Shown here piece by piece: positions 47,329 through 63,222 of a DNA stretch of 64,000 nt (position 1 is the stretch's first letter; each line of letters starts with the position of its first letter). The notes beneath the pieces are model-generated. The model was given only the letters and a program-made list of their open reading frames with translations. It had not been told where the DNA came from and ran no database searches. This stretch comes from Gemmatimonadota bacterium (GTDB taxonomy: Bacteria; Gemmatimonadota; Gemmatimonadetes; Gemmatimonadales; GWC2-71-9). Made by a program: the position numbers and the translations under genes. Location: contig JBDHAB010000014.1 of the NCBI GenBank assembly GCA_039588295.1, forward strand, positions 1 to 64,000. The letters are read 5' to 3'.

Positions 47329-47425
47329 TGGTGCCCAGGGACTGGATTCGAACCAACGACGCACGGTGGTTTAGGACCGCCGCTCTACCACGAAGACCCG
47401 AAAGTCCTCTCTGAGCTACCTGGGC
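47329..47425 (-). tRNA. Atypical tRNA with D-loop hairpin insertion; anticodon ambiguous (8-nt loop, or CUA in an alternative register)
   Basis: GCCCAGG/CCTGGGC acceptor, TTCGAAT T-loop, ACCA end. Confidence 0.6.
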
Positions 47426-47646: not shown

Positions 47647-47722
47647 TGGTGGTCAGACCTGGAATTGAACCAGGGACACGCGGATTTTCAGTCCACTGCT
47701 CTACCAACTGAGCTACCTGACC
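47647..47722 (-). tRNA. tRNA-Phe(GAA)
   Basis: Cloverleaf, loop CTGAAAA, CCA. Confidence 0.9.
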
Positions 47723-47940
47723 ATACGGGTGGGACGCCGACCAGCCATTTGGCTGACCGGCTCCGTAAAGGTCTCGGTGTTGCGGACAGGCTTGCTATCG
47801 GGTTGCACGGTTCGGCCGCAGCGTACGCATGTACGACTCCCGTCCTCGGCAGTTTTACTGCCGAGCATCCCGTCGTGGTTGCACGCGTGCGTGCGATCGT
47901 AGTGAGTGAAAATTAGTGACATCGTTCTGTTCTTTCGACT

Positions 47941-48074: not shown

Positions 48075-48239
48075 CTAGCTAAACTGCACGCCAACGGCGT
48101 TTTTGGGGTGCGTGACGGGATTTGAACCCGCGACCTCTGCATTCACAGTGCAGCGCTCTACCTGCCGAGCTCCACGCACCATAGGATGGTGATGGTCTTC
48201 GCCCTCAGAGAGGGGCTCGGTATGGAGTTGCGTCAACAT
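48075..48239 (-). CDS. Putative His-sensing leader peptide MLTQLHTEPLSEGEDHHHP..., reading into tRNA-His
   Basis: CAT CAC CAT codons (48186-48194) immediately upstream of tRNA-His; promoter upstream. Confidence 0.55.
   Translation of the reverse strand: MLTQLHTEPLSEGEDHHHPMVRGARQVERCTVNAEVAGSNPVTHPKNAVGVQFS
48104..48180 (-). tRNA. tRNA-His(GTG)
   Basis: G-1:C73, loop CTGTGAA, CCA. Confidence 0.9.
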
Positions 48240-49231: not shown

Positions 49232-49382
49232 GATCAACGCCGAGTGAATAACCTTGAGTTGCGTTTTCACGCCAGATTTACATGTCTGGTGGCTTTACCA
49301 ATTTGCCTATCTGCCCTTAGTGGTGGGCAGAGTTGGACTCGAACCAACAATTGCTTGTGAGATTGTTCTGTTGGCGTTGATC
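49232..49382 (-). ncRNA. Y-RNA-like ncRNA A with circularly permuted tRNA domain
   Basis: Terminal stem GATCAACGCC/GGCGTTGATC enclosing T-arm, loop-closed acceptor stem, D-arm, anticodon-like arm; followed by AACTTTTC. Confidence 0.7.
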
Positions 49383-49390
49383 GAAAAGTT

Positions 49391-49522
49391 ACGAAGCGAC
49401 CGAGTTGAAGAGCTTGTTTGGTTGCAAAGCTGGAATCGAACCAGCGACCTACTGTGTCATTGACAGTTGCTCTAACCGAATGAGCTACTTGCTTGTGAGC
49501 CCTGCTGTGGTGGTTGCTTCGT
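49391..49522 (-). ncRNA. Y-RNA-like ncRNA B: tRNA body enclosed by outer stem
   Basis: ACGAAGCAACC/GGTCGCTTCGT stem, CACAAGC, cloverleaf with non-canonical loop CAATGAC. Confidence 0.7.
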
Positions 49523-49653
49523 GGCGCCGGATCCAGGAGTCGAACCTGGCAGTTGCTTGTAGACATTCACCCGTGAGCTCCCCGGAGGGAGCGAGTGGCG
49601 GTGTCGGATCTAGCCGATCTGAAAAATCGGTGACCCCCACGGGTCAATCCGGC
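49522..49653 (-). ncRNA. tRNA-like ncRNA C with about 60-nt structured variable-arm insert
   Basis: GCCGGAT/ATCCGGC-GCCA acceptor, T-arm, insert ending ACAAGC. Confidence 0.65.
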
Positions 49654-49730
49654 AAGTGGGGTGTTCGCTTGAGGGAGTTCCCTCTTCTCCCCCGAAGGGA
49701 AAGGGCAGCGAAACGGTGCCCTGAAAAAGT

Positions 49731-49866
49731 TGCGAAGTGACCGAGGGGAGAGGCTGTTTTGGTGCAAGGAGCAGGATTTGAACCCGCGACCTTCTGGTTA
49801 TCGACCAGACGCTCAACCGACTGAGCTATCTTTGCTTGTGAGCCTAACTGGAGTGGTCACTTCGTA
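49731..49866 (-). ncRNA. Y-RNA-like ncRNA D, paralog of B
   Basis: TACGAAGTGACC/GGTCACTTCGCA stem, CACAAGC, tRNA body with loop TCGATAA. Confidence 0.7.
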
Positions 49867-49867
49867 G

Positions 49868-50003
49868 TGGAGGACCCTGGATTCGAACCAAGAGTTGTTT
49901 AGCTTGTGGACATTCGCCGAGAGCTCCCGTGAAGGAGCGAGTGGTGGTGTCGGTTTCTACCGATTTACCGTCGGGTTGACCCTCCATTAGGGCCGTGTCC
50001 TCC
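49868..50003 (-). ncRNA. tRNA-like ncRNA E, paralog of C
   Basis: GGAGGAC/GTCCTCC acceptor; insert conserved with C. Confidence 0.65.
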
Positions 50004-50118
50004 ATGTTGTTCAGGGTAGTTCCGAGTACGTGGTCTGGGGGGCTTCAAGGTCCCGACCGCTACTGGGTCGGGGTTGTGCTTGTTAGACCTGCGTGTATGG
50101 AACAGCCGTGAGTTCGGG

Positions 50119-50156: not shown

Positions 50157-50729
50157 TCAGATTTTCTCAACTCCGGCCGGCGAAATCGAGTAGCCGGTCT
50201 TGCGGCCGGCCTTGATGAACCGCTGCGCCGCGTAGGCGATGTAGGTCGCGGTGAGCTGGATGAACGGCAGGAACTCCCCGTCCTCGCAGGTCGGAGCTCC
50301 AGCGTCGCCCACGTCGTCGATGACGAAGTCCTCGTCCCAAATGGCCCGCCCAAAGCCCCCATCGGCCGCAAGAGCCCCGTGGAGGCACGGGACCCCGTGC
50401 TCCCGAGCGAACTTCTGAACGATCCTACGGGCCTCTCCGTTGTCCAGGCAGTCGATGAGTAGATCCGCCCCGCCGAGAAGCTGATTCTCGTTGTCGGCCG
50501 TCAGCTTGTTGCTCACGACCTCGATCTTACGGCCATAGCAGAACTGCATGGCCGCCTTGAGAGCCTCAGTCTTCTTCTTGCCCACCCCATTCTTGAAATG
50601 GAACTGAGAAGCGACGTTCTTCATCTCCACCCGGTCGAAGTCGATGACCTTGATGGTCACCTCCTCGTTCCGGAGGGTCTGCACCAGATGGGAACCCAGT
50701 GCGCCGACGCCGATGATCGTGATTTTCAT
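50157..50729 (-). CDS. ThiF/E1-like adenylyltransferase
   Basis: GVGALGS, DFDRVEMKN..SQ, GKKK, DCLDN; candidate catalytic Cys in APTCE. Confidence 0.9.
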   Translation of the reverse strand: MKITIIGVGALGSHLVQTLRNEEVTIKVIDFDRVEMKNVASQFHFKNGVGKKKTEALKAAMQFCYGRKIEVVSNKLTADNENQLLGGADLLIDCLDNGEARRIVQKFAREHGVPCLHGALAADGGFGRAIWDEDFVIDDVGDAGAPTCEDGEFLPFIQLTATYIAYAAQRFIKAGRKTGYSISPAGVEKI

Positions 50730-50743
50730 GATGAGGTCTCCTT

Positions 50744-51103
50744 TTACTTGTCGCCCTTTTTCTGCTTCAGGATCTCGTCGGCCACCATCCCCAGGAATTC
50801 GTCCTTGCGTTGCTCTCGACGAACCTCACCCCTCCGAAGGGTCTCTCGCAAGAAATCCACGGTGGACTCGCGAGCCTGACTGACCGCCTGTTGGAGACGA
50901 TCCGTATTCTTGATGGCATCCAGGACCGAAGTGGACGGCCCCTTGGCAGTGAACGTGAACTTGTCCCCGTCCTTCACCAAACGGGAACTCCCTCCCGCGG
51001 ATTGGTGGAGCTTCCGCAGAGCTCGGAACCCCTCCATCGTTTTCGACCACATCGACTCCGGAATTTGGAGGGTGACGGTGTGTTCGATTATGTCGTTGCT
51101 CAT
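50744..51103 (-). CDS. Hypothetical protein in Ub-like operon
   Basis: 119 aa ORF between Ubl and E1. Confidence 0.6.
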   Translation of the reverse strand: MSNDIIEHTVTLQIPESMWSKTMEGFRALRKLHQSAGGSSRLVKDGDKFTFTAKGPSTSVLDAIKNTDRLQQAVSQARESTVDFLRETLRRGEVRREQRKDEFLGMVADEILKQKKGDK

Positions 51104-51139
51104 CGGGATCTTGAACCGGGTTTGTTACCTCTATTCCCG

Positions 51140-51403
51140 TTAGCCCCCGAACGGAGTCTTCGGACGAACCTGAATCAGGTTGTAGTCCCGATCGGCGTTC
51201 GCCGAAAAACGGTCCACCACGAAATCGGCGAAATCCGGATCCGCGTCGGCCGGAATGCCCGGGATCGACCCATTGGAAACGGCCTCCGAAACCCAGGTCT
51301 TGATGTCGCCATCGACGGCATCGAAGAACACAGGATCCGGGAGATCCCCGTTCTCTCCCTTGTAGGTGATGTTGAGACGTGCTTGCGTGTTATCCATGTC
51401 CAT
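51140..51403 (-). CDS. Ubiquitin-like (beta-grasp) protein
   Basis: 87 aa, ends RPKTPFGG-stop; lies between JAB and E1. Confidence 0.75.
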   Translation of the reverse strand: MDMDNTQARLNITYKGENGDLPDPVFFDAVDGDIKTWVSEAVSNGSIPGIPADADPDFADFVVDRFSANADRDYNLIQVRPKTPFGG

Positions 51404-51788
51404 GACGATTCTCCTTTGAGTAGTCGCGGAGCTGTGCAGCCCAGTCGGGCTCGTCCGCGAGAAAATGGTTGTAGTCGTGCTTCTTGGGTCCTTCGTAGTT
51501 CAAGCCGATCACACGATCGGAACTCGTGATCCACCAGGTCAGGCGTCGCCCGAGCCCGAGCTCTACGGCGGCGAAGGTGGTGATGTCGGTCCAGGAAGGG
51601 CCGGGCAGACCCGACCCCGGGTGACTGTGTGCGAACCCCAGGAATGCTTCCCTTCGGTGCTCCCACAGAACGTCCCACAGATCCCGACTGTCGGGGAGAC
51701 TGCCTCCCGTTCGGCCGTTTGGCAAATGCCAATGGACGACTCCTGCACCCGTAATGACTGCGCCTGCTTCGATCATCGCTTCCTCCAA
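51390..51788 (-). CDS. JAB/MPN (Mov34) metallopeptidase
   Basis: N-terminal E, then HSHP......PS..D JAMM motif. Confidence 0.85.
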   Translation of the reverse strand: MEEAMIEAGAVITGAGVVHWHLPNGRTGGSLPDSRDLWDVLWEHRREAFLGFAHSHPGSGLPGPSWTDITTFAAVELGLGRRLTWWITSSDRVIGLNYEGPKKHDYNHFLADEPDWAAQLRDYSKENRHGHG

Positions 51789-51855
51789 GGAACATGCGTG
51801 AACGCCAAAATGAGCACGCAGATCAGCATGAACACGAGCACTACGGGTGAAAAAT

Positions 51856-52449
51856 TCATCGTTTCCTCTTCTTGATAACTCGTGGAATCTCGTCGAGAGT
51901 CGCCAGAACTTCCTCGTTCTGACGTTTCTGCCATCCCTGGAGCCTTACCGAGGTCTTCAGGTAGTAGGGATGCTTGAGCCAGTCAGCGTACTGAATGTTG
52001 CCTCGCACCTTGTTGCACTTGCGGCAAGCCGACACGAGGTTGGCTTCGGTGGACGGCCCTCCGTCCTCCCAGAGCACGAGGTGGTCCACGGTGAGCGGGA
52101 CCTCCTTGTTGTTGCAGTAACGGCAGGCGTACCCATCACGCCGATAGACGTTCCAGGAGACACCCTGCTCGATGTTGCGTTGGCACTTGCGGGCGACGGA
52201 CTTGTACAGCTTCCCGTCCTCGGCCTTCTCCAGCACTTCGGTCTCGACGAGGTCGGACTGACGGATGAGTTTTTGCCATTCCTCGGTCGTCGGGGTGAGG
52301 ACACGGATGTCCCCTTCATGCTCTCCGAATTCGGGGAACACGACGACGAGGGTCTGATCGTTGCCAGCCCACACCCCACCCACCAGGAGAATCTCCTGGC
52401 CAACGGTCTTGATATCGAGGTCTTTGAATTCCATCAGACATGCCTCCAT
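51856..52449 (-). CDS. HNH endonuclease with N-terminal extension
   Basis: RDGYACRYC..LTVDH..GG..NLVSACRKCN. Confidence 0.9.
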   Translation of the reverse strand: MEACLMEFKDLDIKTVGQEILLVGGVWAGNDQTLVVVFPEFGEHEGDIRVLTPTTEEWQKLIRQSDLVETEVLEKAEDGKLYKSVARKCQRNIEQGVSWNVYRRDGYACRYCNNKEVPLTVDHLVLWEDGGPSTEANLVSACRKCNKVRGNIQYADWLKHPYYLKTSVRLQGWQKRQNEEVLATLDEIPRVIKKRKR

Positions 52450-53366
52450 ACGACGAGCTTGTGCTCGCGGATCGCTTGGCGAATAACTGCGGGCAGAGAT
52501 TCCAGAGTGAAGTAGGTGTCGCCCTTCTCATCGGTGCCGTGATCTGTAAGACAAACACCGGCATCGATGATTTGGAGGTTCGTGTCGCACACGCACTCCA
52601 GGCGCTGCCCATCGACGCGGTACTTCACGGTCCACTCATTCTTGCGACCACTCTTACGGTGGTCCAGATACTGCGCACCGCCGACCGTGAGAGCCGCCTT
52701 GGCAGCCTCCTGGAAATCCTCCTTGGCCAGTTCACGCCGACCAGCACCATCCCCGAGCTTCTCCAGGAGCTCCGCACGACGAGCCACCTTGGCGAGACGG
52801 GCCTCCTCCTCGGCACGACGACGGATGAGCTCCTGACGACGAAGCTCTGCCTGCTGACGCTGGTAGACCTCCATGCGGAAGGCTGCATCGAGCGCGGGCA
52901 CCACACTGCGGATACCGAACGTGCTGATCTGGTTGTCGAGAAAAGCGTTCATGACTTCCTCTTCGGGACCGAGGGGAAAATCCTGCTCACAGAAAATGAG
53001 AGGCCCCTCGGGGTAAATGCGGCCAGCTCGCACACGCGAGAACCGGTCGAGGTCTTCGGGAAGGAGATAGACCTTCTCCGAGTAGTTGATGATCTTGCCC
53101 GGGTCGGGGTCGATCCGGGTGTCGTCGGGGACCAGACGGTCCCCGACCAGGTAGCCCTTGACCGAGCTCTTGAGAAGTTCAGGAGCCGGGTCAGCGGGCT
53201 TCGGGTCCTCGGCCTTGTTGCCTTCGATCTGGAAGGCGTACCAACCAAAATCCCGAGGCCGAGTCCCGAGCTTGAAAGTTCGGGACTCGGAGTGGAGAGA
53301 CCCACCACCCGTCCAAGGAAGAGTAGTGGTCTCCCCCTCGGCCGTGAGTAGATCTCTCCAACCCAT
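52434..53366 (-). CDS. Hypothetical protein, candidate E2-like
   Basis: C-terminal IIDAGVCL resembles the E2 GxICL active site; operon context. Confidence 0.55.
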   Translation of the reverse strand: MGWRDLLTAEGETTTLPWTGGGSLHSESRTFKLGTRPRDFGWYAFQIEGNKAEDPKPADPAPELLKSSVKGYLVGDRLVPDDTRIDPDPGKIINYSEKVYLLPEDLDRFSRVRAGRIYPEGPLIFCEQDFPLGPEEEVMNAFLDNQISTFGIRSVVPALDAAFRMEVYQRQQAELRRQELIRRRAEEEARLAKVARRAELLEKLGDGAGRRELAKEDFQEAAKAALTVGGAQYLDHRKSGRKNEWTVKYRVDGQRLECVCDTNLQIIDAGVCLTDHGTDEKGDTYFTLESLPAVIRQAIREHKLVVWRHV

Positions 53367-53375
53367 GGGGTCACC

Positions 53376-55268
53376 TCATGCCCATGCGGGCTTCTGGAGA
53401 AGCTCCGTTTGAAGGATTTGGTCCACGAGCGTCACACGAGGGCGCGCGCGACCAGCCACCGCTTCCCCAACCGGGGTTGCAGCGATCAGAGCCCGAATCG
53501 TCCGAGTGATCGCGTAGGGATCCTCGAAGGTACGGTCATCGAGCATGAGGCACGGGATACCGAGCCGGTTGGCCGTCTCTCGCACCGCGGTGCTGTTGTC
53601 CGCGCCATAGTGACGCGCACGCCAACCCGCGGCTCCCCCGAACGCAACCGTCTTGAGGAACCCGAAAGCGACCGGGCGCAGGCCCGAAGCCTCGACGGCC
53701 GTGTGGAAGGGACGTGCCTCCTCATCACCAATGAAGATGATCAGAGAGTCCTCGTCATCCGCGGGCTTGTACTTCTGGAGCACACGGATCCCGGCACCGT
53801 AGTCAGTACCACCGCCAGCGCCGATGCCACGGAAAGCCGCCTCCACACCCTTCGTCGAAGCGTGCTTGATGGTGACCTCCCGACCGTTCGTGTTGAACAC
53901 GGCGACCTTCACCTGGTCGAGCGGGAACGACTGGAGGAACTTGGCGATCAGAGGCTTTGCAGCATCCAGAGCACCCTGCATCGACCCCGAGATATCCACG
54001 AGGAACTTGATCGACAAGCCACGGATGGTCTCCTCGACCACCTTCTGAGCCACCTTGTCGGCACCCTCCTCCATCGTCTCCTGGAGCTCCTTGGACCGAA
54101 CGTTGCGGGCGATGTTAGCCGCACGCATGTCGTCCGCCTTGGCGAGAGCCGCAGCGTGGCGCTCCTTGATTTCCTGGATCTTGAACAGGCCCAGGTCCTC
54201 CAGGGTCGGAGTCATGATGATGATGTCCTTGTCCGAAAGGGACCCGGCCTCGATGGCCGCAACCATCACTGCACGAGTGACTCCCACCTTCGGAGGAAGG
54301 AGACCCACGATCCGCTTCCAGTTCGGCTTGGTCTTCTCGATGAGCTGGCAGATAGCCGCCTCGTTGAGATCGTCCCACGACTCGGCAGCCTTGACCGCCT
54401 TACCGATCGCCATGCCACGCCGGCCGTCGTCGGCCTGCTTCTGCTTCCAGCGCAGAGCCTCGAAGAACTTGTCCGAGGTCGGCTTGTAGCCGATACGCCG
54501 AGCCATGGTCATGACCGTGGTACGGAACCCGGCCTTGACGAGACCCTCCAGCATCTTGGGGTTCTCCTCACGGAACCGAAGCCACTTCTCGATGGCCTTG
54601 GGCCATCGACCGAGGAACGGACGCTTGGCCGACTTGCCGAAGCCGAGCTCGCGGTTGATCTCCGCGATCTCGGGCAGCATGAGCACGTCGTAGATCCGAA
54701 GCAGGAGCTTCGGGTTCAGATCCTTGCCCTTCTCCTGGAGAAGAAGCATGGCCTCACCGACGTTCCGGTAGTCGTCATCGTCGAACAGGTGCTCACCGCC
54801 GTCCATGACGGGGTCCCCCTTCCGAGACTGAACCAGAAGGAACGCAGCGAGCACGACCTTGAGGTCACGGTGCTCCTGACGGAAGGCGAACGAAGCCCAC
54901 TTCGCAGCGAACTCGTTGTCCATCTTCCAGACCTCAGCGACCTGCTTGTAGAACCACACCGCGACCTCGGGGAACAGACCGCTCTTGCGGTACAGCCCCA
55001 CCTCGTTACGGCCGTTCCGAACGGTGTTGTCGCCGTTCATCGTGCCGATCTCGGTACGAACGTTCTTCTTCCCCGCCTTGCTGAGACGGAACACCTTCTT
55101 GACGCCGTCCGCCTCCTTGTGCGTGACGGGATCCCACCGCACGCCAATAGTGGCACGCGCGTCGGGAACCACAACGCCAGGGCGGTTGTGAACCATGTGA
55201 TCTGAGTACGCCAGGAGAGACTGGATGATGGTCTCAGCGGGCCCGAGGTTTTCCTTGTTGTTCTCCAT
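53376..55268 (-). CDS. VWA-domain protein, divergent TROVE/Ro60-like
   Basis: Helical N-region with FAAKWASFA..RDLKVVLAA; C-terminal MIDAS DISGSM, GGTD, GDEE. Confidence 0.7.
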   Translation of the reverse strand: MENNKENLGPAETIIQSLLAYSDHMVHNRPGVVVPDARATIGVRWDPVTHKEADGVKKVFRLSKAGKKNVRTEIGTMNGDNTVRNGRNEVGLYRKSGLFPEVAVWFYKQVAEVWKMDNEFAAKWASFAFRQEHRDLKVVLAAFLLVQSRKGDPVMDGGEHLFDDDDYRNVGEAMLLLQEKGKDLNPKLLLRIYDVLMLPEIAEINRELGFGKSAKRPFLGRWPKAIEKWLRFREENPKMLEGLVKAGFRTTVMTMARRIGYKPTSDKFFEALRWKQKQADDGRRGMAIGKAVKAAESWDDLNEAAICQLIEKTKPNWKRIVGLLPPKVGVTRAVMVAAIEAGSLSDKDIIIMTPTLEDLGLFKIQEIKERHAAALAKADDMRAANIARNVRSKELQETMEEGADKVAQKVVEETIRGLSIKFLVDISGSMQGALDAAKPLIAKFLQSFPLDQVKVAVFNTNGREVTIKHASTKGVEAAFRGIGAGGGTDYGAGIRVLQKYKPADDEDSLIIFIGDEEARPFHTAVEASGLRPVAFGFLKTVAFGGAAGWRARHYGADNSTAVRETANRLGIPCLMLDDRTFEDPYAITRTIRALIAATPVGEAVAGRARPRVTLVDQILQTELLQKPAWA

Positions 55269-55411
55269 GGTGTCTCTTCCTCTCTAGTTTCGTGAAAAGT
55301 CGGGGCTGGCCCTTGTACCCCTGAGTTACGTGAAAATATGGGCCTTGCACGAAAGAGCCAAGGAACCTCAACTTTCCGGCCTTTTTGACCGGGCGCCGTT
55401 GATCCTTAGCT

Positions 55412-55488
55412 TGGTTGCGACGGTGGGAATCGAACCCACGACCTCTCCCTTATGAGGGGAATGCTCTGCCGGACTGAGCTACGTCGCA
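55412..55488 (-). tRNA. tRNA-Met/Ile2(CAT)
   Basis: Cloverleaf, loop CTCATAA, ACCA. Confidence 0.85.
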
Positions 55489-55545
55489 AAAATGCCCGTT
55501 GCTGCACTGCGCTCGACTGGTACGGGCGGCCCGTCGAACTGAAAA

Positions 55546-55623
55546 TGGTAGCGGGTCTCGGATTTGAACCGAGGTCTCGGGATTATGAGCCCCGCGGGGA
55601 CAACCGGACTCCCCCAACCCGCA
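55546..55623 (-). tRNA. tRNA-Met(CAT), initiator-like
   Basis: 1-72 mismatch, G-rich anticodon stem. Confidence 0.8.
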
Positions 55624-55776
55624 AAATTTAGTGAACCTGTGACAGCGTGAGGTTCTTGCGCCCACGGATGCGGCGAAGTGCTCGACTAGGGCTCTGCTTT
55701 TTCCCGAGTCCTAGTTGAGCTCGGACGAGCTGTTCGAGACGGAGGAACTCGTCCTCCGTCAGCTCGTCCTCCGTCG

Positions 55777-55812
55777 TTAGTAGATCTTGAAAACTTCGTT
55801 CGTCATCCCCAT
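55777..55812 (-). CDS. Possible leader peptide MGMTNEVFKIY
   Basis: GAGGA RBS; followed by alternative hairpins, upstream of the CAT tRNAs. Confidence 0.35.
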   Translation of the reverse strand: MGMTNEVFKIY

Positions 55813-55832
55813 CGTGTCGTCCTCGACTTTCT

Positions 55833-55910
55833 TGGTGGACGTAGGTGGATTTGAACCACCGACCTTCCGCTTATCAGGCGGCTGCACCGACCAGGCTGTG
55901 CTACACGTCC
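55833..55910 (-). tRNA. tRNA-Ile(GAT)
   Basis: Loop CTGATAA, ACCA. Confidence 0.9.
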
Positions 55911-55914
55911 TCGG

Positions 55915-55988
55915 TCGGCCTGGAAGGAGTTGAACCTTCGACCTCGCACTTATCAGGCGCGCGCTCTAACCAACTGAGCTACAGACCG
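55915..55988 (-). tRNA. tRNA-Ile(GAT), no encoded CCA
   Basis: Loop CTGATAA. Confidence 0.9.
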
Positions 55989-56031
55989 AGTAGATAATCG
56001 GTCCAATGTCACTCTCGTCTTCGTTTTCCAT
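55966..56031 (-). CDS. Putative Ile-sensing leader peptide MENEDESDIGPIIYSVCSSVG
   Basis: AAGGAG RBS; ATT..ATT ATC just before tRNA-Ile. Confidence 0.6.
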   Translation of the reverse strand: MENEDESDIGPIIYSVCSSVG

Positions 56032-56062
56032 CTCGGTCTGCTCCTTTCTTGGTTGATGTTCT

Positions 56063-56137
56063 TGGTAGCCTCGGACGGGATTGAACCGACGACCTTCACC
56101 GTGTCGAGGTGCTGCTCTGCCACTGAGCTACGAGGCT
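56063..56137 (-). tRNA. tRNA-Val(GAC)
   Basis: Loop TCGACAC, ACCA. Confidence 0.85.
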
Positions 56138-56142
56138 GTGTT

Positions 56143-56216
56143 TGGTACCGAGTGAAGGACTCGAACCTTCGCTTCCATCGTGTGAAAATGGCACTCTACC
56201 TCTGAGTTAACCCGGC
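56143..56216 (-). tRNA. tRNA-Val(CAC)
   Basis: Loop TTCACAC, ACCA. Confidence 0.85.
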
Positions 56217-56882
56217 ATAGTTTTTGAGTTGGTCCATCCATCCTTCGATGCGAGCTCGGAAAAGTGTGTCGTGAACCGCGACCTCCAAACACCCGTAGGG
56301 ATGCCCTTTCCGTTTTCCTTTGTTGGTTTTGTTCAAATTCTTCGTGGCCTTGATCTTGGAAGACGCCACTCCAGACACCCGGCTCCAGTACCGTTTAGCT
56401 TTGCTACCGTCCAGCGACGGGTGCAGACGAACCCGCAGTCTAATTTTGTCTTCGGGGACCTCACACTCCTCCCGTAGAAACTGGAGCACGAATCGAATCA
56501 TGTCCGGGTCCGTGTTGCTGATTGAAAACGAGTTCCTTTCCTTTTTACCTTCACCCCAGTAGAGCGCAGCCATCACTCCCCGGAGGGTGCGACTGGAAAG
56601 GTCAACGGGAATTTCCCTTCGACCTCGTACCCGAGCCTCTTCTCGTTTCTTGGCCCAGATTTGCTTAGGGGAGTTGGGGTGGGATGCTGCGGCGATGCGT
56701 CCTTTCAGACGCCCTTGTTCCTCCTTGTCTCGTAGTTGTTCGACCTGTTGCTTGGTAAGGGGGATGTCTCGGGTCCAACGACTGATTGAACTTTTGGCGC
56801 ATCCCGTGTGATTGGCGATCTCGGTGAGGGACTGTCCCTGACGACGCAGGTCTCTTGCTTCTTCTCGTTGATCAGGCTTCAC
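56196..56882 (-). CDS. HTH plus LAGLIDADG-like domain protein (putative homing endonuclease)
   Basis: N-terminal HTH (SLTEIA..GCAKSSISRW); ALYWGEG..F.ISNTD. Confidence 0.7.
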   Translation of the reverse strand: MKPDQREEARDLRRQGQSLTEIANHTGCAKSSISRWTRDIPLTKQQVEQLRDKEEQGRLKGRIAAASHPNSPKQIWAKKREEARVRGRREIPVDLSSRTLRGVMAALYWGEGKKERNSFSISNTDPDMIRFVLQFLREECEVPEDKIRLRVRLHPSLDGSKAKRYWSRVSGVASSKIKATKNLNKTNKGKRKGHPYGCLEVAVHDTLFRARIEGWMDQLKNYAGLTQR

Positions 56883-56945
56883 CGTTTCAGTATGGCAGAA
56901 ATGGAACCGACGGCCAAGGTGTCCTGTGCGGACCAGTGTAAAAAG

Positions 56946-57021
56946 CGGGGCGTACGGGATTTGAACCCGTGACCTCCTACGTGACAGGCAGGCGTCCTAA
57001 GCCAGACTAGACCAACACCCC
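56946..57021 (-). tRNA. tRNA-Asp(GTC), no encoded CCA
   Basis: Loop CTGTCAC. Confidence 0.9.
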
Positions 57022-57152
57022 ATGTTGGCGGAGCAGACGAGAATCGAACTCGCAACCTTCGGACAGACAATCCGTTGCGCTACCAATTGCGCCACTGCTC
57101 CGTACATATCGTCGGTATCGTCCGCATCATCGCTTTCGCTGTTGGTGTTCAT
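56997..57152 (-). CDS. Putative Asp-sensing leader peptide MNTNSESDDADDTDDMY..., reading through tRNA-Asp
   Basis: AAGGAG RBS; 6 Asp in 8 codons just before tRNA-Asp. Confidence 0.65.
   Translation of the reverse strand: MNTNSESDDADDTDDMYGAVAQLVAQRIVCPKVASSILVCSANMGCWSSLA
57026..57101 (-). tRNA. tRNA-Asp(GTC), divergent
   Basis: Loop TTGTCTG, GCCA. Confidence 0.8.
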
Positions 57153-57394
57153 CGTGCTGCTCCTTTCTTGGGGTGAGTGGGTGTCTGGAAAGTTCGGCTG
57201 TTTGATCCCACAGGCCGTCCGGTCGCCTGCTGTATCGCCCCTCGGTGCGGTGCGCTGTCGTGCACCTCGCTTCATCGAGGCGCGTTAGGATGGGATGGAA
57301 AAGTTGAGGCTTTTGTGTCTACCGGTCAGCCTCGGTGGCCGGCCATCACGGATCCTTGATCAGGGGACAACCTGGGACAGGATTGGAAAAGTTA

Positions 57395-57546
57395 GGGATG
57401 CAGGTGAGTGTGCAAGGTGGGTGTGCAGTCATTTGACCACTCCGGCATAAATGGAGCCGGAGCCTGGATTCGAACCAGGAGTCTTCTGTGAATGAAACAG
57501 ATGTCTTTACCTTTTGCTTGTGACCTTAAACGGGGACCTGCGTCCC
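57395..57546 (-). ncRNA. Y-RNA-like ncRNA F with permuted tRNA domain
   Basis: GGGACGCAGGT/ACCTGCATCCC stem, TCACAAGCAA, T-arm then CTCCGGC-loop-GCCGGAG then mini D-arm; AACTTTTCC. Confidence 0.65.
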
Positions 57547-57587
57547 GGAGCCCACGGAGGGATTCGAACCCTCGACCTCAGACGTAC
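57547..57587 (-). pseudogene. 3' half of a tRNA-Thr-like gene
   Basis: AGGTC GAGGG TTCGAAT CCCTC CGTGGGC TCC without 5' half. Confidence 0.6.
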
Positions 57588-57589
57588 GG

Positions 57590-57664
57590 AGCCCGCGAGA
57601 GGATTCGAACCTCCGACTCCCTCATTACGAATGAGGTGCTCTAGCCGGACTGAGCTACACGGGC
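57590..57664 (-). tRNA. tRNA-Thr(CGT)
   Basis: Loop TTCGTAA. Confidence 0.9.
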
Positions 57665-57701
57665 GATTGATGTTGGTGTTCTCCTGTTGAAGTGAAGTGC
57701 T

Positions 57702-57775
57702 TGGAGCTGGCGGTGAGAATCGAACTCACGTCTTCGGGTTACAAATCCGGAGCTCTGCCATTGAGCTACGCCAGC
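57702..57775 (-). tRNA. tRNA-Thr(TGT)
   Basis: Loop TTTGTAA, TCCA. Confidence 0.9.
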
Positions 57776-57874
57776 GATAAGGCCGGCGTGGCCAGTCCGT
57801 GTCGAGCAACCCTTCCGGGCTCCCCGGCGGGTTTCTTCACTCAGTTGGAGTTCGGTAAATCCGCCGGGAAATGC

Positions 57875-57970
57875 TCAACACGGGGTCATATCGCCCATAA
57901 TGGGCAATACGACGGCCACGACGACCAGATTGGTCGTTGTCGTGGCTGTGTATGTCGTGGAGCGTTTCAT
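57875..57970 (-). CDS. Attenuator-type leader peptide MKRSTTYTATTTTNLVVVAVVLPIMGDMTPC
   Basis: 8 Thr and 5 Val codons, thrL-like start; between promoter and tRNA operon. Confidence 0.75.
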   Translation of the reverse strand: MKRSTTYTATTTTNLVVVAVVLPIMGDMTPC

Positions 57971-58018
57971 GGCGAAAAATCCGAAGCCGCTTTCCTGCCA
58001 AGGGAGGCGACCTGTCCA

Positions 58019-58047
58019 GGTGTACGCGCGCTTCGACGGGCTGTCAA
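58019..58047 (-). promoter_or_regulatory. Sigma70-like promoter of tRNA operon
   Basis: TTGACA-17-TACACC. Confidence 0.65.
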
Positions 58048-58071
58048 GCACCCTTGTTCACTTTTTTTGAA

Positions 58072-58851
58072 TCACCATCGCCACACGAACTCGTCGAGCC
58101 ACTGCTTGCGGCTCTCGTCGTCGAGCGCGAGGAAAGCCTGCTCCTCCGCCATCATCTCCACGTTGAAAGCGTCGGCAATCTTGCGGTGTGCGGTGCCGGG
58201 GTCGAACGCCCAAGGCTGCCAGGGGTAGTGGGCCCCCAGGCGATACTGGTTCTCCACCTCGATGATGCAGTCGATCCACGGCTTCATAGACGCCCACGTC
58301 ATCGTCTCACGGTCCATCTCGCGCTTGGCGAACTCCTGCCGGTGCAGGAGCTTGAGCGGGAGCGGGCTGTGCCCGAGGTTGTCGTTGATGGAACGCCCCG
58401 CGATGACGATGTTCGACTGGCCGTTACCGAGGCCGTTGTTGCGCTCGCATACGAGATGCTCCCGAGAGCACTCCCACGGAACGTAGTAGTGAAGAGCAAT
58501 CCGGAGGTCCGTAGGGACGAGGTACATCTGGACGCCCGTGTACCAACATCGCTGGGGGAGGCCCGCATCGAGGCCGAACCGCTTAGCCATCTTCACCGAG
58601 ACCCAGTCCCGGTTTTTATTGCGCTTTGCGATCTCGTCGTAGTGCATCCACACGAGCTCGGGGTCGTGCTGATCGCCCCCGGTCATCACCAGGAGCTCCC
58701 GGTCAGCGTACTTCTTGTAGCGAAGGAGGCGTCCGGTCTCGGGGTCAACACGGTTTAACGCGGCAACGCGCATCCGCTCTTGAAATTCGGGATCGTGTTT
58801 CCCTTTCCACTCGCGGAGCTTATCCCGGTTCTTTCGACCGTGACGGCCCAT
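58072..58851 (-). CDS. Hypothetical protein, degenerate HNH-like
   Basis: CWYTG..SREHLV..NIVIA..IN. Confidence 0.55.
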   Translation of the reverse strand: MGRHGRKNRDKLREWKGKHDPEFQERMRVAALNRVDPETGRLLRYKKYADRELLVMTGGDQHDPELVWMHYDEIAKRNKNRDWVSVKMAKRFGLDAGLPQRCWYTGVQMYLVPTDLRIALHYYVPWECSREHLVCERNNGLGNGQSNIVIAGRSINDNLGHSPLPLKLLHRQEFAKREMDRETMTWASMKPWIDCIIEVENQYRLGAHYPWQPWAFDPGTAHRKIADAFNVEMMAEEQAFLALDDESRKQWLDEFVWRW

Positions 58852-60128
58852 CAGTGTCGGGGAACATTCCCGGGGTCGACAGCGATCTTCGCCACGATCC
58901 TCTTGCACTCGGAACACGAAACCGTGAGGGCTCCGTTCTCGTAGGAGCACCAGGTGGGGGCACCGATGTGGCACTGGGGATGCAGGAACATCTCGGTGCT
59001 GTGGCTCTTGTGGTCACACCCCTCCACGGCGCACGTCATACCGTCGAGCGTCACCTGGGTCAGCGGCGGGAGGTTTTTGCGGCGCCCATTCTCCGCCTCG
59101 ACCACTTCCTCGTCGTCCCCCTCGTGGTCATGGCTCCCATGCTTGTGGGACAGTATCGGCCCCAACGCCGGATAGAATTTCATGGCGTCGTTGGGCATCT
59201 GCGGAAACCCAGAGACCTGACCGTCACCGATCTCCATGATGATCCACTCGCCGTCTGCCGTCTGTGCGAGGTCCATGGAGAAGAACTGGCTGTCCACCTT
59301 CGCCGCCAGCGCGCCGAGAGTTTCGAACGAAGGGAGATCCTCGATGGATTTCGGGGCCGAAAAACTGCGAGGCATACTCTCCTCCCAACCACCGTCGGGC
59401 TCCGGGACCTCGTGGGTGACACGCTCGTAGGCGTCCTCGTCCCAGTACTCGCTGATGTTGATGCTGTGTCCGTTGAGCCAGAAGATTCGGAACTCCTCCG
59501 ACATCGGCATCCCCGACTGAGGATGCTTGCCGATGGATTTGAGCGGCACGAACTGACGCAGGATCACACCCCCCTGGAGATCGTCACCCTGGCGCTCCAG
59601 GAAATTCGAGATCACGGTCTGGGCCTTCTCCATGTTGGGGATGAAGCACGCCTCCTCCCACTCGTGTTTCCTACTTTTCACGTAGTCCTTGATGAGGATG
59701 CCGTGCTCGTAACGACCGAGCATCTCCTGGGCAGTACGGAGGATCCTCTCGACACTGATCTCATGCTTCTGGATGATTGCGGAGTCGGGCGTCGAATCGA
59801 CGAGATCGAGGTACCAACCGGGGAACTCGTGAGCCTTCCGATACTGGTGGGGGGTGTTGATGAGGTCCACCAGGCAAACCTGGAGCTTCTCGTAGAGCTT
59901 CTCGTACTGATCGGACGTGAGCATCCACCCCCGGTAGATAGCCGGTGTGGGCTCCTCGAAATCAGGGACGTACTTCACGGCCGCTGCCGCATCGTCGTCG
60001 TTGACCAGGGACTCCCAGTGCACGAAAGCGACCTGATAGCCACACTGCTTGGCGATGTCGGCTTCGGTGGCCCAATCTGGGTCGGGTTTTTTGGGCTCGA
60101 AGGGATCGGATGGGAACAGGACGAGCAT
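58851..60128 (-). CDS. ATP-grasp domain protein (R2K-like clade) with C-terminal Cys/His cluster
   Basis: YRGWML, KDYVKS.KHEW, EFRIF, MDLA, EIGDGQVSG. Confidence 0.8.
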   Translation of the reverse strand: MLVLFPSDPFEPKKPDPDWATEADIAKQCGYQVAFVHWESLVNDDDAAAAVKYVPDFEEPTPAIYRGWMLTSDQYEKLYEKLQVCLVDLINTPHQYRKAHEFPGWYLDLVDSTPDSAIIQKHEISVERILRTAQEMLGRYEHGILIKDYVKSRKHEWEEACFIPNMEKAQTVISNFLERQGDDLQGGVILRQFVPLKSIGKHPQSGMPMSEEFRIFWLNGHSINISEYWDEDAYERVTHEVPEPDGGWEESMPRSFSAPKSIEDLPSFETLGALAAKVDSQFFSMDLAQTADGEWIIMEIGDGQVSGFPQMPNDAMKFYPALGPILSHKHGSHDHEGDDEEVVEAENGRRKNLPPLTQVTLDGMTCAVEGCDHKSHSTEMFLHPQCHIGAPTWCSYENGALTVSCSECKRIVAKIAVDPGNVPRH

Positions 60129-60163
60129 TACCTCGATTTTACCCCTATCGGGCCCCGTATCTG

Positions 60164-61180
60164 ATGGCACACGTCCATAAAGCACTCATTGTCCTGCTGT
60201 TTGCGCCTGCGTGCGACAAACAGGCTGACGACTCCGCAGCCAAGACTGATCCCGCTGCGAAGCTGGATGTCGGCGCAAAGCTCGATGTCGGGACCCCTGG
60301 GACGCACACGGTCAACTTCGTCAACCAGTGCTCCAGTGACATCTGGGTTGGATCAGTCGGCAATACCGGGTTCAGCGGTCTCAACAACGGCGGTTGGCAG
60401 ATGGGAGCCAAGGGCTCCGGCACCGACAAGACCACCCTCCAAGTTGAAGTGGGATGGAGCGGTCGTTTCTGGCCACGTACCGGGTGCACGTTCAACGATA
60501 AGGACCTCTGCGACGGGTTCACGCCCTGCTGCACGAGTGGCTCTTGTCTGACTGCGGACAACAAAACCTTCGGCCTGGAGTGCGCATATTCTGGGAAAGC
60601 CCCGGTGGGGATCGGCGAGTTCACGTTCGACGCCGCTGGAGGTCTCGGCCCCTATGACACCTACGATGTGAGCTTCGTTGATGGATGGGGGGAGTCCCTC
60701 TCTGTCGTGGCTGTGGCCGGCACCTTCAACCCGAAACCAGACCCAGGGTTGAAAGCTCCTTGGTGCACGGTGTCAGGATGCACTTCGGCGCCGACGTGTC
60801 CGAAGGGGCTCAGTGCCGGTGGCGATAGCTGCTGGAGCCCCTGTCAGAACGCGGTCAACAGCGGGGACCCCGATAGCACGCAGGCGAAACTCTGCTGCTC
60901 GTGCTCAATGACGAGTCCCATCACCTGCGGAGAGGCCACATGCGCTGGCGGCTACGGCTGCTCTCCCTACACGCAACCTCCGTGGCCGGCGGACCAGGTG
61001 TGCAATCCCTGGAACACGGACAAGAGCCGAGCGTGGGACACCACGAGCCAGGACTACATCGCCAACGTCCACAAAACGTGCCCCGGGGTCTACGCCTGGC
61101 AGTTCGATGATGTCAACGGAACGTACAACTGCCGCAAGACCAACGGCCTCGTGGACTACACCGTCACCTTCTGCCCGTAG
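60164..61180 (+). CDS. Thaumatin-family (PR-5-like) lipoprotein
   Basis: Lipobox-like APAC; VNQC..IWVG, WSGRFWPRTGC, YDVSFVDG, CP..YAWQFDD, YTVTFCP. Confidence 0.9.
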   Translation: MAHVHKALIVLLFAPACDKQADDSAAKTDPAAKLDVGAKLDVGTPGTHTVNFVNQCSSDIWVGSVGNTGFSGLNNGGWQMGAKGSGTDKTTLQVEVGWSGRFWPRTGCTFNDKDLCDGFTPCCTSGSCLTADNKTFGLECAYSGKAPVGIGEFTFDAAGGLGPYDTYDVSFVDGWGESLSVVAVAGTFNPKPDPGLKAPWCTVSGCTSAPTCPKGLSAGGDSCWSPCQNAVNSGDPDSTQAKLCCSCSMTSPITCGEATCAGGYGCSPYTQPPWPADQVCNPWNTDKSRAWDTTSQDYIANVHKTCPGVYAWQFDDVNGTYNCRKTNGLVDYTVTFCP

Positions 61181-63189: not shown

Positions 63190-63222
63190 ATGTTCTGCAT
63201 GAAACGCAAGACCAAGCTGTAG
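63190..63222 (+). CDS. Putative Lys-sensing leader peptide MFCMKRKTKL
   Basis: AAA, AAG, AAG codons right after the promoter, upstream of Lys tRNAs. Confidence 0.55.
   Translation: MFCMKRKTKL

What the first reader, a model, noticed from the sequence alone, without database searches (positions are those of the whole stretch)
56997..57172. Asp-rich leader running into tRNA-Asp; its RBS duplicates the acceptor strand
Seen: AAGGAG RBS, then MNTNSES-DDADDTDD-MY continuing into tRNA-Asp. The RBS region GGAGCAG is identical to the tRNA 5' acceptor strand, so the 3' strand CTGCTCC has two possible partners. Inference: a ribosome stalled on Asp codons leaves the tRNA free to fold, whereas translation through it disrupts folding.
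Basis: partly seen in the sequence, partly recalled or inferred. Interest (0 to 1): 0.75.

Follow-up and report, generated by a model that had tools for sequence, protein, structure and literature searches.

The report
Aspartate-sensing mini-gene running into phage tRNA
A giant phage places a tiny gene packed with aspartate codons directly in front of, and reading on into, its aspartate tRNA gene, one of a set of such matched mini-genes for most of its tRNAs, so a ribosome slowed by a shortage of one tRNA probably lets more of that tRNA be made.

Summary
The Asp-rich uORF is real and conserved. SD AAGGAG (57165-57160) and ATG 57152 give MNTNSESDDADDTDDMY, read in frame through tRNA-Asp(GUC) to a stop inside a second tRNA-Asp. 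In related phage contigs, 11 of 43 tRNA-Asp(GUC) genes and 0 of 1006 other tRNA genes have such a leader. In 11 of 11 the last Asp codon ends 5-6 nt before the tRNA. That puts the acceptor stem at the mRNA entrance of a ribosome waiting on that codon. His and Ile tRNAs have similar overlap leaders. In a 619-kb relative, most tRNA operons begin with a leader spelled in the operon's own amino acids (permutation p=1.5e-5).

The RBS-acceptor duplication exists here (11 bp with a bulge) but occurs in only 2 of 11 loci, so it is accessory at best.

Best reading: a terminator-less leader-peptide switch in which ribosome position decides whether the pre-tRNA folds and matures (0.55). That it is a translated Asp sensor of some kind: about 0.9. 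There is no expression evidence. I found no paper on it. The scan earlier noted terminator-type leaders before tRNA genes on other DNA, but not this overlap type.

The parts
57160..57165 (-). Shine-Dalgarno AAGGAG of the Asp leader
   Evidence: AAAGGA(G)-type SD in 10 of 11 homologous leaders, AGGAAA in L125
57152..57163 (-). GGAGCAG-C-ACGA: possible alternative partner of tRNA-Asp positions 62-72 (accessory, not conserved)
56997..57152 (-). Asp leader uORF, 51 codons: 17 codons before the tRNA, the rest inside tRNA-Asp1 and the 5' part of tRNA-Asp2
57108..57131 (-). Asp run DDADDTDD (6 GAY codons); the last ends 6 nt before tRNA position 1
57026..57101 (-). tRNA-Asp(GUC) 1; atypical (G9, GCGC/GCGC D stem, U32, U37 in the window, A27-A43 mismatch)
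56945..57021 (-). tRNA-Asp(GUC) 2; holds the uORF stop codon in its D arm
57170..57180 (-). C-rich stretch that can pair with the 5' end of tRNA-Asp2 (weak, post hoc)
57875..57970 (-). Operon-head leader MKRSTTYTATTTTNLVVVAVVLPIMGDMTPC* for the Thr-Asp-Val-Ile-Met tRNA operon
58019..58047 (-). TTGACA-N17-TACACC promoter-like site ahead of the operon (below the scanner's threshold)
   Evidence: read; picked by the looser rule; not counted
55412..57775 (-). tRNA operon Thr, Thr, Asp, Asp, Val, Val, Ile, Ile, Met, Met
   Evidence: same order in L028, G001-G003, L094
55966..56031 (-). Ile overlap leader MENEDESDIGPIIY reading into tRNA-Ile(GAU) 55988
48075..48239 (-). His overlap leader MLTQLHTEPLSEGEDHHHPM reading through tRNA-His(GUG) 48179
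47713..47922 (-). Conserved 69-codon uORF ending at the U8-A9-G10 of the second tRNA-Phe; only 2 Phe codons (weak member)
   Evidence: read by eye
63190..63222 (+). Lys operon-head leader MFCMKRKTKL* ahead of four tRNA-Lys genes

Best explanation
The uORF is a cis-acting gauge of Asp-tRNA supply whose output is the folding and maturation of the tRNA it overlaps. SHOWN: a strong SD, an Asp run, no stop before the tRNA, and a last Asp codon 5-6 nt before position 1 in all homologs, with sister leaders for His and Ile and operon-head leaders for other amino acids. INFERRED: when charged tRNA-Asp is plentiful, ribosomes follow RNA polymerase through the Asp run into the tRNA and keep unwinding its acceptor and D arms. 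The precursor is then a poor substrate for RNase P and 3' processing, and it misfolds (here helped by the SD:3'-strand duplex) or decays. When Asp-tRNA is scarce, through starvation or host cleavage of tRNA, ribosomes wait on the Asp codons with the tRNA just outside the mRNA channel. The cloverleaf forms and is cut out, which raises the missing tRNA. A folded stem at the entrance may lengthen the wait. This is negative feedback for one tRNA family, nested inside a longer operon that has its own multivalent leader.
For: 11 of 43 tRNA-Asp(GUC) genes versus 0 of 1006 other tRNA genes carry an SD-led Asp-rich ORF entering the tRNA (Fisher p=1.4e-16). A label permutation over all 37 overlap uORFs among 1046 tRNAs was never matched in 100,000 trials. 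The spacing is 5-6 nt in 11 of 11 despite leader lengths of 9-17 codons and at least four different acceptor stems; shuffling codons reproduces the spacing with probability 0.05-0.28 per locus. PMC7282821 (passages) says the channel holds 11 nt downstream of the first P-site base and that stem-loops 11-12 nt downstream hinder A-site tRNA binding. With the last Asp codon in the A site, tRNA position 1 is 11-12 nt downstream. His leaders end 6-7 nt and Ile leaders 4-7 nt before their tRNAs. There is no terminator-like site on the minus strand from 55300 to 58100. In the Thr leader a conserved helix sequesters the tRNA-Thr 5' end in 5 of 6 homologs, and it is released with a ribosome in the Thr run in 4 of 6.
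Against: There is no RNA or ribosome data. Footprint folding rescues the acceptor stem clearly in only 2 of 6 Asp loci, and foreign leaders also disrupt it in 14-60% of 80 controls per locus. Leaders are not generally more complementary to their own tRNA than to others (Fisher p=0.32 for 13 heads in G004, 0.56 for 6 in the window). A ribosome on the last Asp codon would cover the RNase P site's 5' leader, so processing must wait for release or use earlier stalls (inference). tRNA folds are stable and could refold after the ribosome leaves. 19 of 30 loci with tRNA-Asp lack the leader. One relative's His leader lost its HHH (L091), and another's first tRNA-Ile has no such leader (L090). The homologs are related, so counts are not independent, and the Asp threshold was set.
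Confidence: 0.55

Rival explanations
1. The sensor is the same but the output is transcription. Ribosome position decides whether the tRNA folds, and an unfolded, C-rich, ribosome-free stretch lets Rho load or polymerase stop, so the downstream Asp/Val/Ile/Met tRNAs are made only on stalling.
For: Some sister leaders have intrinsic terminators: G004 Trp/Cys, Rctr197k and L010. The Thr head leader holds Val, Ile and Met codons whose effect is not explained by tRNA-Thr folding (acceptor probability 0 to 0.2 with a ribosome on those codons, except the last Met/Asp position in one homolog), which points to polarity. C/A-rich spacers surround the leader.
Against: No intrinsic terminator follows the Asp leader. 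The stop position varies from tRNA position 8 to 298, whereas the 5' spacing is fixed.
Confidence: 0.2
2. The stalled ribosome acts on stability or with the opposite sign. Parked at the tRNA's 5' edge it shields the precursor from 5' decay, or it blocks RNase P, so that an uncharged tRNA is not overproduced in starvation.
For: The last Asp codon places the ribosome directly over the 5' leader next to position 1. With a footprint on the last Asp codon the acceptor stem probability was 0-0.18 in 6 of 6 loci.
Against: Operon-head leaders with terminators have the usual sign in the folds: terminator with the ribosome at the stop, antiterminator at one of three cognate positions tested. Most Asp codons lie further upstream and leave the site free.
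Confidence: 0.1
3. One reading: the switch works through the RBS copy of the acceptor strand, which captures the 3' strand unless a ribosome is stalled.
For: Duplex of -18.6 in the window and -16.4 in L090/L072, each p=0.014 against 137 RBS regions; Fisher p=0.014 over 6 related loci. It is the minimum-energy fold in the window.
Against: The duplex is weak in 7 of 11 loci. Any GGAG SD pairs with CUCC/UUCC. The same SD-spacer occurs in the Ile leader.
Confidence: 0.07
4. The peptides themselves act, or the ORFs are minigene sinks or vestiges with no control over the tRNA.
For: The leader is absent or degenerate in many relatives. The Asp and Ile leaders share acidic N-termini and SD-spacer ancestry.
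Against: Peptide length and non-Asp residues are not conserved; only cognate codons and spacing are. The amino acid tracks the tRNA across operons.
Confidence: 0.07
5. Chance.
For: AT-rich SD-plus-ATG strings arise by chance: about half of the 37 overlap ORFs show no clear cognate enrichment.
Against: 11 of 43 versus 0 of 1006; permutations.
Confidence: 0.01

Closest known systems
Leader-peptide transcription attenuators of amino-acid operons (trp, his, thr, ilv; pheM-pheST for a synthetase). Principle read in PMC1183508 (passages); the names of individual leaders are recalled.
   Same: A short translated uORF with codons cognate to the regulated function. Multivalent leaders for multi-amino-acid operons. 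In G004 one internal Trp/Cys leader has a terminator and a competing helix.
   Different: The regulated genes are tRNAs, on a phage. The Asp, His and Ile leaders have no terminator and no stop before the regulated gene; the ORF overlaps the tRNA itself.
Translational attenuation by a stalled ribosome (ermC/cat type; recalled)
   Same: No terminator; ribosome position on a leader decides a downstream RNA fold.
   Different: The signal is a codon run rather than a drug-peptide arrest, and the downstream fold is a tRNA cloverleaf rather than an RBS hairpin.
Stem-loops at the ribosome entrance that hinder A-site binding (dnaX, HIV; PMC7282821, passages)
   Same: The same 11-12 nt offset from the first P-site base.
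   Different: There is no slippery sequence or frameshift product here; the structure is a tRNA acceptor stem. Pausing was not tested.
T-box riboswitches (recalled)
   Same: They report shortage of one charged tRNA.
   Different: A T-box binds uncharged tRNA directly and needs no translation. No T-box match in the window (only tRNA matches reached Rfam's gathering score).

Membership tests
Leader-peptide transcription attenuator | Short uORF with a ribosome-binding site | tested here: met
   SD and ATG in 11 of 11 loci; translation itself not shown
Leader-peptide transcription attenuator | Run of codons cognate to the regulated function, conserved in homologs | tested here: met
   3-8 Asp codons per leader; 11 of 43 versus 0 of 1006
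Leader-peptide transcription attenuator | uORF stops before the regulated gene | tested here: not met
   Stop at tRNA position 8 to 298 in 11 of 11
Leader-peptide transcription attenuator | Intrinsic terminator and competing antiterminator between leader and gene | tested here: not met
   Only 5-6 nt separate the Asp run from the tRNA; no minus-strand terminator-like site. A terminator is present for the sister Trp/Cys leader in G004
Leader-peptide transcription attenuator | Output depends on amino-acid supply | not testable with these tools
   Needs in vitro or in vivo assay
Translational-attenuation type (ribosome position controls a fold) | Two mutually exclusive folds switched by the ribosome footprint | tested here: inconclusive
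   Clear switch in 2 of 6 Asp loci, partial in 2, none in 2; Thr leader 4 of 6
T-box riboswitch | Stem I with specifier loop and T-box antiterminator (Rfam model) | tested here: not met
   No match at gathering score in the window or at E<=5 in 57160-57600

The most novel reading that the evidence does not exclude
These megaphages run a genome-wide 'tRNA on demand' regulon. Each tRNA family, down to rare codons (TTA/TTG for tRNA-Leu UAA/CAA; ATA and AGG for the CAU-anticodon tRNA and tRNA-Arg CCU), is gated by its own codon-matched leader. In the overlap class the pre-tRNA is itself the mRNA, and a translating ribosome directly vetoes its maturation. The phage could thus detect which tRNA a host anticodon nuclease or starvation has removed and replace only that one.
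Probability: 0.45. Interest if true: 0.92.

Novelty: new variant of a known kind. Interest (0 to 1): 0.82.

Why it matters
I know bacterial tRNA synthesis as controlled globally (promoters, ppGpp; recalled), not tRNA by tRNA, and my searches found no paper on leader-peptide control of tRNA genes. A ribosome that reads into a tRNA and thereby decides its maturation would be a new output for attenuation. It also bears on why large phages carry tRNAs. A supply that is switched on per codon fits compensation for host tRNA depletion or starvation better than constitutive codon-bias matching, and the leaders make this testable with a construct of about 150 nt.

Tried and rejected
1. RBS duplication as a required element: rejected.
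2. A general anti-tRNA helix in all leaders: not found (only the G004 His leader stood out, p=0.01 of 19 tests).
3. Pairing of the region upstream of the SD with the 5' end of tRNA-Asp2: p=0.03-0.25 against 142 spacers but 0.015-0.72 against shuffles, post hoc; left as a weak lead.
4. Footprint folding of 17 operon-head or stop-before-tRNA leaders: switch-like for Thr (4 of 6), Leu-UUR and the CAU/Arg leader; none for Lys (4), Glu/Asn, Arg-Ser-Gly-Ala, Pro or Gln.
5. Expression: no RNA holder listed. Contigs of four runs covered the stretch only in pieces; one 73-nt piece over the leader matched with a 6-nt gap and no other letters.
6. Pattern searches: the Ile-tRNA junction found nothing in viral contigs, and the Lys leader pattern found 1 contig. 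Of 22 hits to the first Asp pattern, 3 showed an Asp leader; the other 19 were not pursued.
7. The strict sigma-70 scan found no promoter; the looser rule mis-picked the start for the Glu/Asn and Gln operons, and these were left uncorrected in the test.
8. The window alone has only 3 testable operons (p=0.17).
9. Rfam names nothing for the conserved structure at 57195-57295.
10. Literature searches (listings and abstract starts only) showed no paper on this. The library lacks most subscription papers, and no supplements were read.

Full report
Context. The window is bases 1-64000 of contig C14 of a 4.5-Mb assembly. C14 holds 19 of the assembly's 68 tRNA calls and has lower GC (0.604) than the other large contigs (0.625-0.656). 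It encodes endolysin, RNA ligase and RNase H homologs. Around a vWA-domain protein (I call it Ro60-like from recall) it is syntenic with IMG/VR virus records, among them G004, 618,736 bases and 92% complete. I read it as a piece of a megaphage binned with a bacterium; the host is unknown.

The observation. On the minus strand, AAGGAG (57165-57160) precedes ATG 57152. Seventeen codons, MNTNSESDDADDTDDMY, end exactly at position 1 of tRNA-Asp(GUC) (57101). The frame stays open through this tRNA and stops in the D arm of a second tRNA-Asp at 56997. Six of 16 codons are Asp (p=3.4e-4). GGAGCAG after the SD equals tRNA positions 1-7 and extends to an 11-bp bulged duplex with positions 62-72 (-18.6 kcal/mol). 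Only 1 of 137 background RBS regions did as well (p=0.014).

Conservation. Homologous loci came from the Ro60-like neighbour and from tRNA patterns. I scanned 1049 distinct tRNA genes after dropping three duplicate loci (L077, L093, L121) and genes within 120 nt of a locus end. An SD-led ORF with at least 3 Asp and at least 25% Asp enters 11 of 43 tRNA-Asp(GUC) genes and 0 of 1006 others; 11 of 30 loci with a tRNA-Asp have one. Examples are MNDDNDDDADDTY, MDSDDSDDRDLY, MEDDDDADDSY, MDDDDDVHDPN, MPDDDDDDDDRL and MDAPDDCDDR. The threshold was set, and the loci are related. A threshold-free permutation of amino-acid labels over all 37 SD-led ORFs that enter any of 1046 tRNAs gave 8.90 against a mean of 3.10 and a maximum of 6.96 in 100,000 trials. 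Only L063 depends solely on a pattern that included the upstream TAY; L089-L091 were found again through the protein. Five leaders precede tRNA-Asp genes with other acceptor stems (CCCGCGT, GGGGTG, GGCCTCA twice, GCCCTGT).

What is conserved and what is not. Peptide length (9-17 codons before the tRNA), non-Asp residues, reading register and stop position (tRNA position 8 to 298) all vary. Two things do not: no stop before the tRNA, and 5-6 nt from the last Asp codon to position 1 in 11 of 11. PMC7282821 (passages) states that the mRNA channel holds 11 nt downstream of the first P-site base and that stem-loops 11-12 nt downstream hinder A-site tRNA binding. With the last Asp codon in the A site, position 1 lies 11-12 nt downstream. 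I infer that this codon is the last at which a waiting ribosome leaves the acceptor stem intact. The RBS duplication is not conserved: exact in 2 of 11 loci, moderate in 2, weak in 7. The window's Ile leader begins with the same AAAGGAGCAG.

The wider system. In the window, tRNA genes are grouped by amino acid and each group has a matching leader. MKRSTTYTATTTTNLVVVAVVLPIMGDMTPC* heads Thr-Asp-Val-Ile-Met, MENEDESDIGPIIY runs into tRNA-Ile, MLTQLHTEPLSEGEDHHHPM runs into tRNA-His, and MFCMKRKTKL* precedes four tRNA-Lys. His leaders keep HHH 6-7 nt before the tRNA in 6 of 7 loci and Ile leaders end 4-7 nt before it in 6 loci; one His leader lost its run, and one contig's first tRNA-Ile lacks a leader. 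For G004 I fetched 7 stretches (about 121 of 619 kb) chosen to cover its 55 tRNA matches. A fixed rule (first ATG after a TTGAC-type promoter) yielded 11 leaders. Their content of the operon's amino acids was 2.99 against 1.47 +/- 0.34 by permutation (p=1.5e-5), although the rule picked the wrong start twice and one pick was uninformative. Examples are 36 of 47 residues for Arg/Ser/Gly/Ala/Trp/Cys and 22 of 40 for Pro/Arg/Leu. By eye, the missed frames are MALWLQQQQI* before two tRNA-Gln and a Glu/Asn-ending ORF before tRNA-Glu/Asn. The Leu(UAA, CAA) leader uses TTG and TTA, and the CAU/Arg(CCU) leader uses ATA once and AGG three times. TTA, ATA and AGG make up 0.09%, 0.12% and 0.5% of 7751 phage codons. 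An internal leader with W-C-N-W-C precedes a GC hairpin and U tract directly before tRNA-Trp and tRNA-Cys. It folds as a terminator with the ribosome at the stop, and as an antiterminator with the ribosome on the second Trp codon but not on the first Trp or the last Cys codon. Two more distant phages with mixed arrays, GenBank Rctr197k (not annotated there) and L010, have 52- and 55-codon leaders holding all 20 amino acids followed by terminators; 24 of 861 windows of that size in phage proteins hold all 20. Other array heads listed showed no such leader.

Mechanism. The sensor follows from established attenuator logic (PMC1183508, passages). The output cannot be an intrinsic terminator between leader and tRNA (6 nt of space). 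The simplest reading is steric: elongating ribosomes unwind the nascent tRNA, and stalled ones let it fold and be processed. Folding support is mixed. With a footprint on Asp codons the acceptor stem rose above 0.9 in L041 and L046 (free: 0.52 and 0.09), to 0.85-0.93 at two codons in L072, to 0.42 at best in the window, and stayed at 0.02 or below in L028 and L052; foreign leaders also broke the stem in 14-60% of controls. The Thr head leader gives independent support for folding control: an 11-bp helix with the tRNA-Thr 5' end is kept in 5 of 6 homologs and opens with a ribosome in the Thr run in 4 of 6, but not on most Val/Ile/Met codons. No general leader-tRNA complementarity exists. I put the folding/maturation output at 0.55, transcriptional polarity at 0.2, stability or opposite sign at 0.1, the strict RBS-capture version at 0.07, no cis role at 0.07 and chance at 0.01.

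Comparison and novelty. It works like a leader-peptide attenuator but fails two defining features of the transcriptional family (stop before the gene, terminator), so I do not file the Asp leader as a member. Nine searches (listings only) showed no paper on leader control of tRNA genes; PMC4810235 (passages) discusses phage tRNAs as supplements and host tRNA depletion as defence, without such control in the passages seen. Subscription papers and supplements were not visible. Earlier notes of this scan describe terminator-type leaders before tRNA genes on other DNA. None matched this sequence, this place or the overlap design; they are unchecked leads and did not set my score.

Verdict. A real, conserved and probably regulatory feature: a new variant of attenuation with a possibly new output, embedded in a phage-wide codon-matched tRNA regulon. 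Function is untested. Interest 0.82.

Noticed in passing
window 47332-47425 (-): tRNA-like gene with an extended D arm that ARAGORN at relaxed threshold calls Pyl (anticodon CUA); a similar call in L062. Possible amber suppressor.
   Followed up: no
window 49265-50090 (-) and 57400-57530 (-): Repeated CACAAGC-bearing, partly permuted tRNA-like elements near the vWA/Ro60-like gene; weak YrlA (Y RNA-like) match at 49265-49378, 23 bits, E=0.085, far below the gathering score of 69.
   Followed up: partly
window 50157-55268 (-): Gene cluster between tRNA operons: vWA-domain protein, unknown 310-aa protein, HNH, JAB-like (below cut-off), 87-aa protein ending in GG (ubiquitin-like, my inference) and ThiF/E1-like protein; the vWA protein lies beside tRNA arrays in many phage contigs.
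   Followed up: partly
window 57195-57295 (-): Conserved structured stretch upstream of the Asp leader in six loci (hairpin CAGGC...GCCTG; 2 of 16 pairs with changes on both sides), no Rfam match; not seen in L092 or L094.
   Followed up: partly
window 57026-57101 (-): tRNA-Asp1 has a tRNA-Pro-like D arm (G9, GCGC/GCGC; likeness recalled), U32, and in the window U37, where the five homologs have A37.
   Followed up: no
L088 6641-6870 (GenBank KX853510, Virus Rctr197k): Unannotated 52-codon ORF with all 20 amino acids plus a strong terminator ahead of a mixed tRNA array; the same design in L010 about 240 nt before 5550.
   Followed up: partly
L078 5968-6220 (G004): Trp/Cys leader with terminator and competing helix directly before tRNA-Trp.
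   Followed up: partly
L077 2343-2412; L041 5075-5144; L046 5074-5147: Odd tRNA-like element with a variable anticodon loop just upstream of the Asp leader; absent in the window, L028 and L052.
   Followed up: no
window 56196-56882 (-): 228-aa HTH-containing ORF inserted between tRNA-Asp2 and tRNA-Val; a similar ORF sits at other points of the operon in L052 and L072. Possibly a mobile endonuclease.
   Followed up: no
window 55630-55812 (-): SD-less short ORF MGMTNEVFKIY* followed by a 50-codon open frame in another register, as if one small gene were frameshifted (read by eye).
   Followed up: no
L080 8040-8114 (G004): tRNA-like gene whose loop reads as anticodon UCA (possible opal reader).
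   Followed up: no
window 60110-61180 (+): Thaumatin-family protein in a phage contig (E=1e-27).
   Followed up: no
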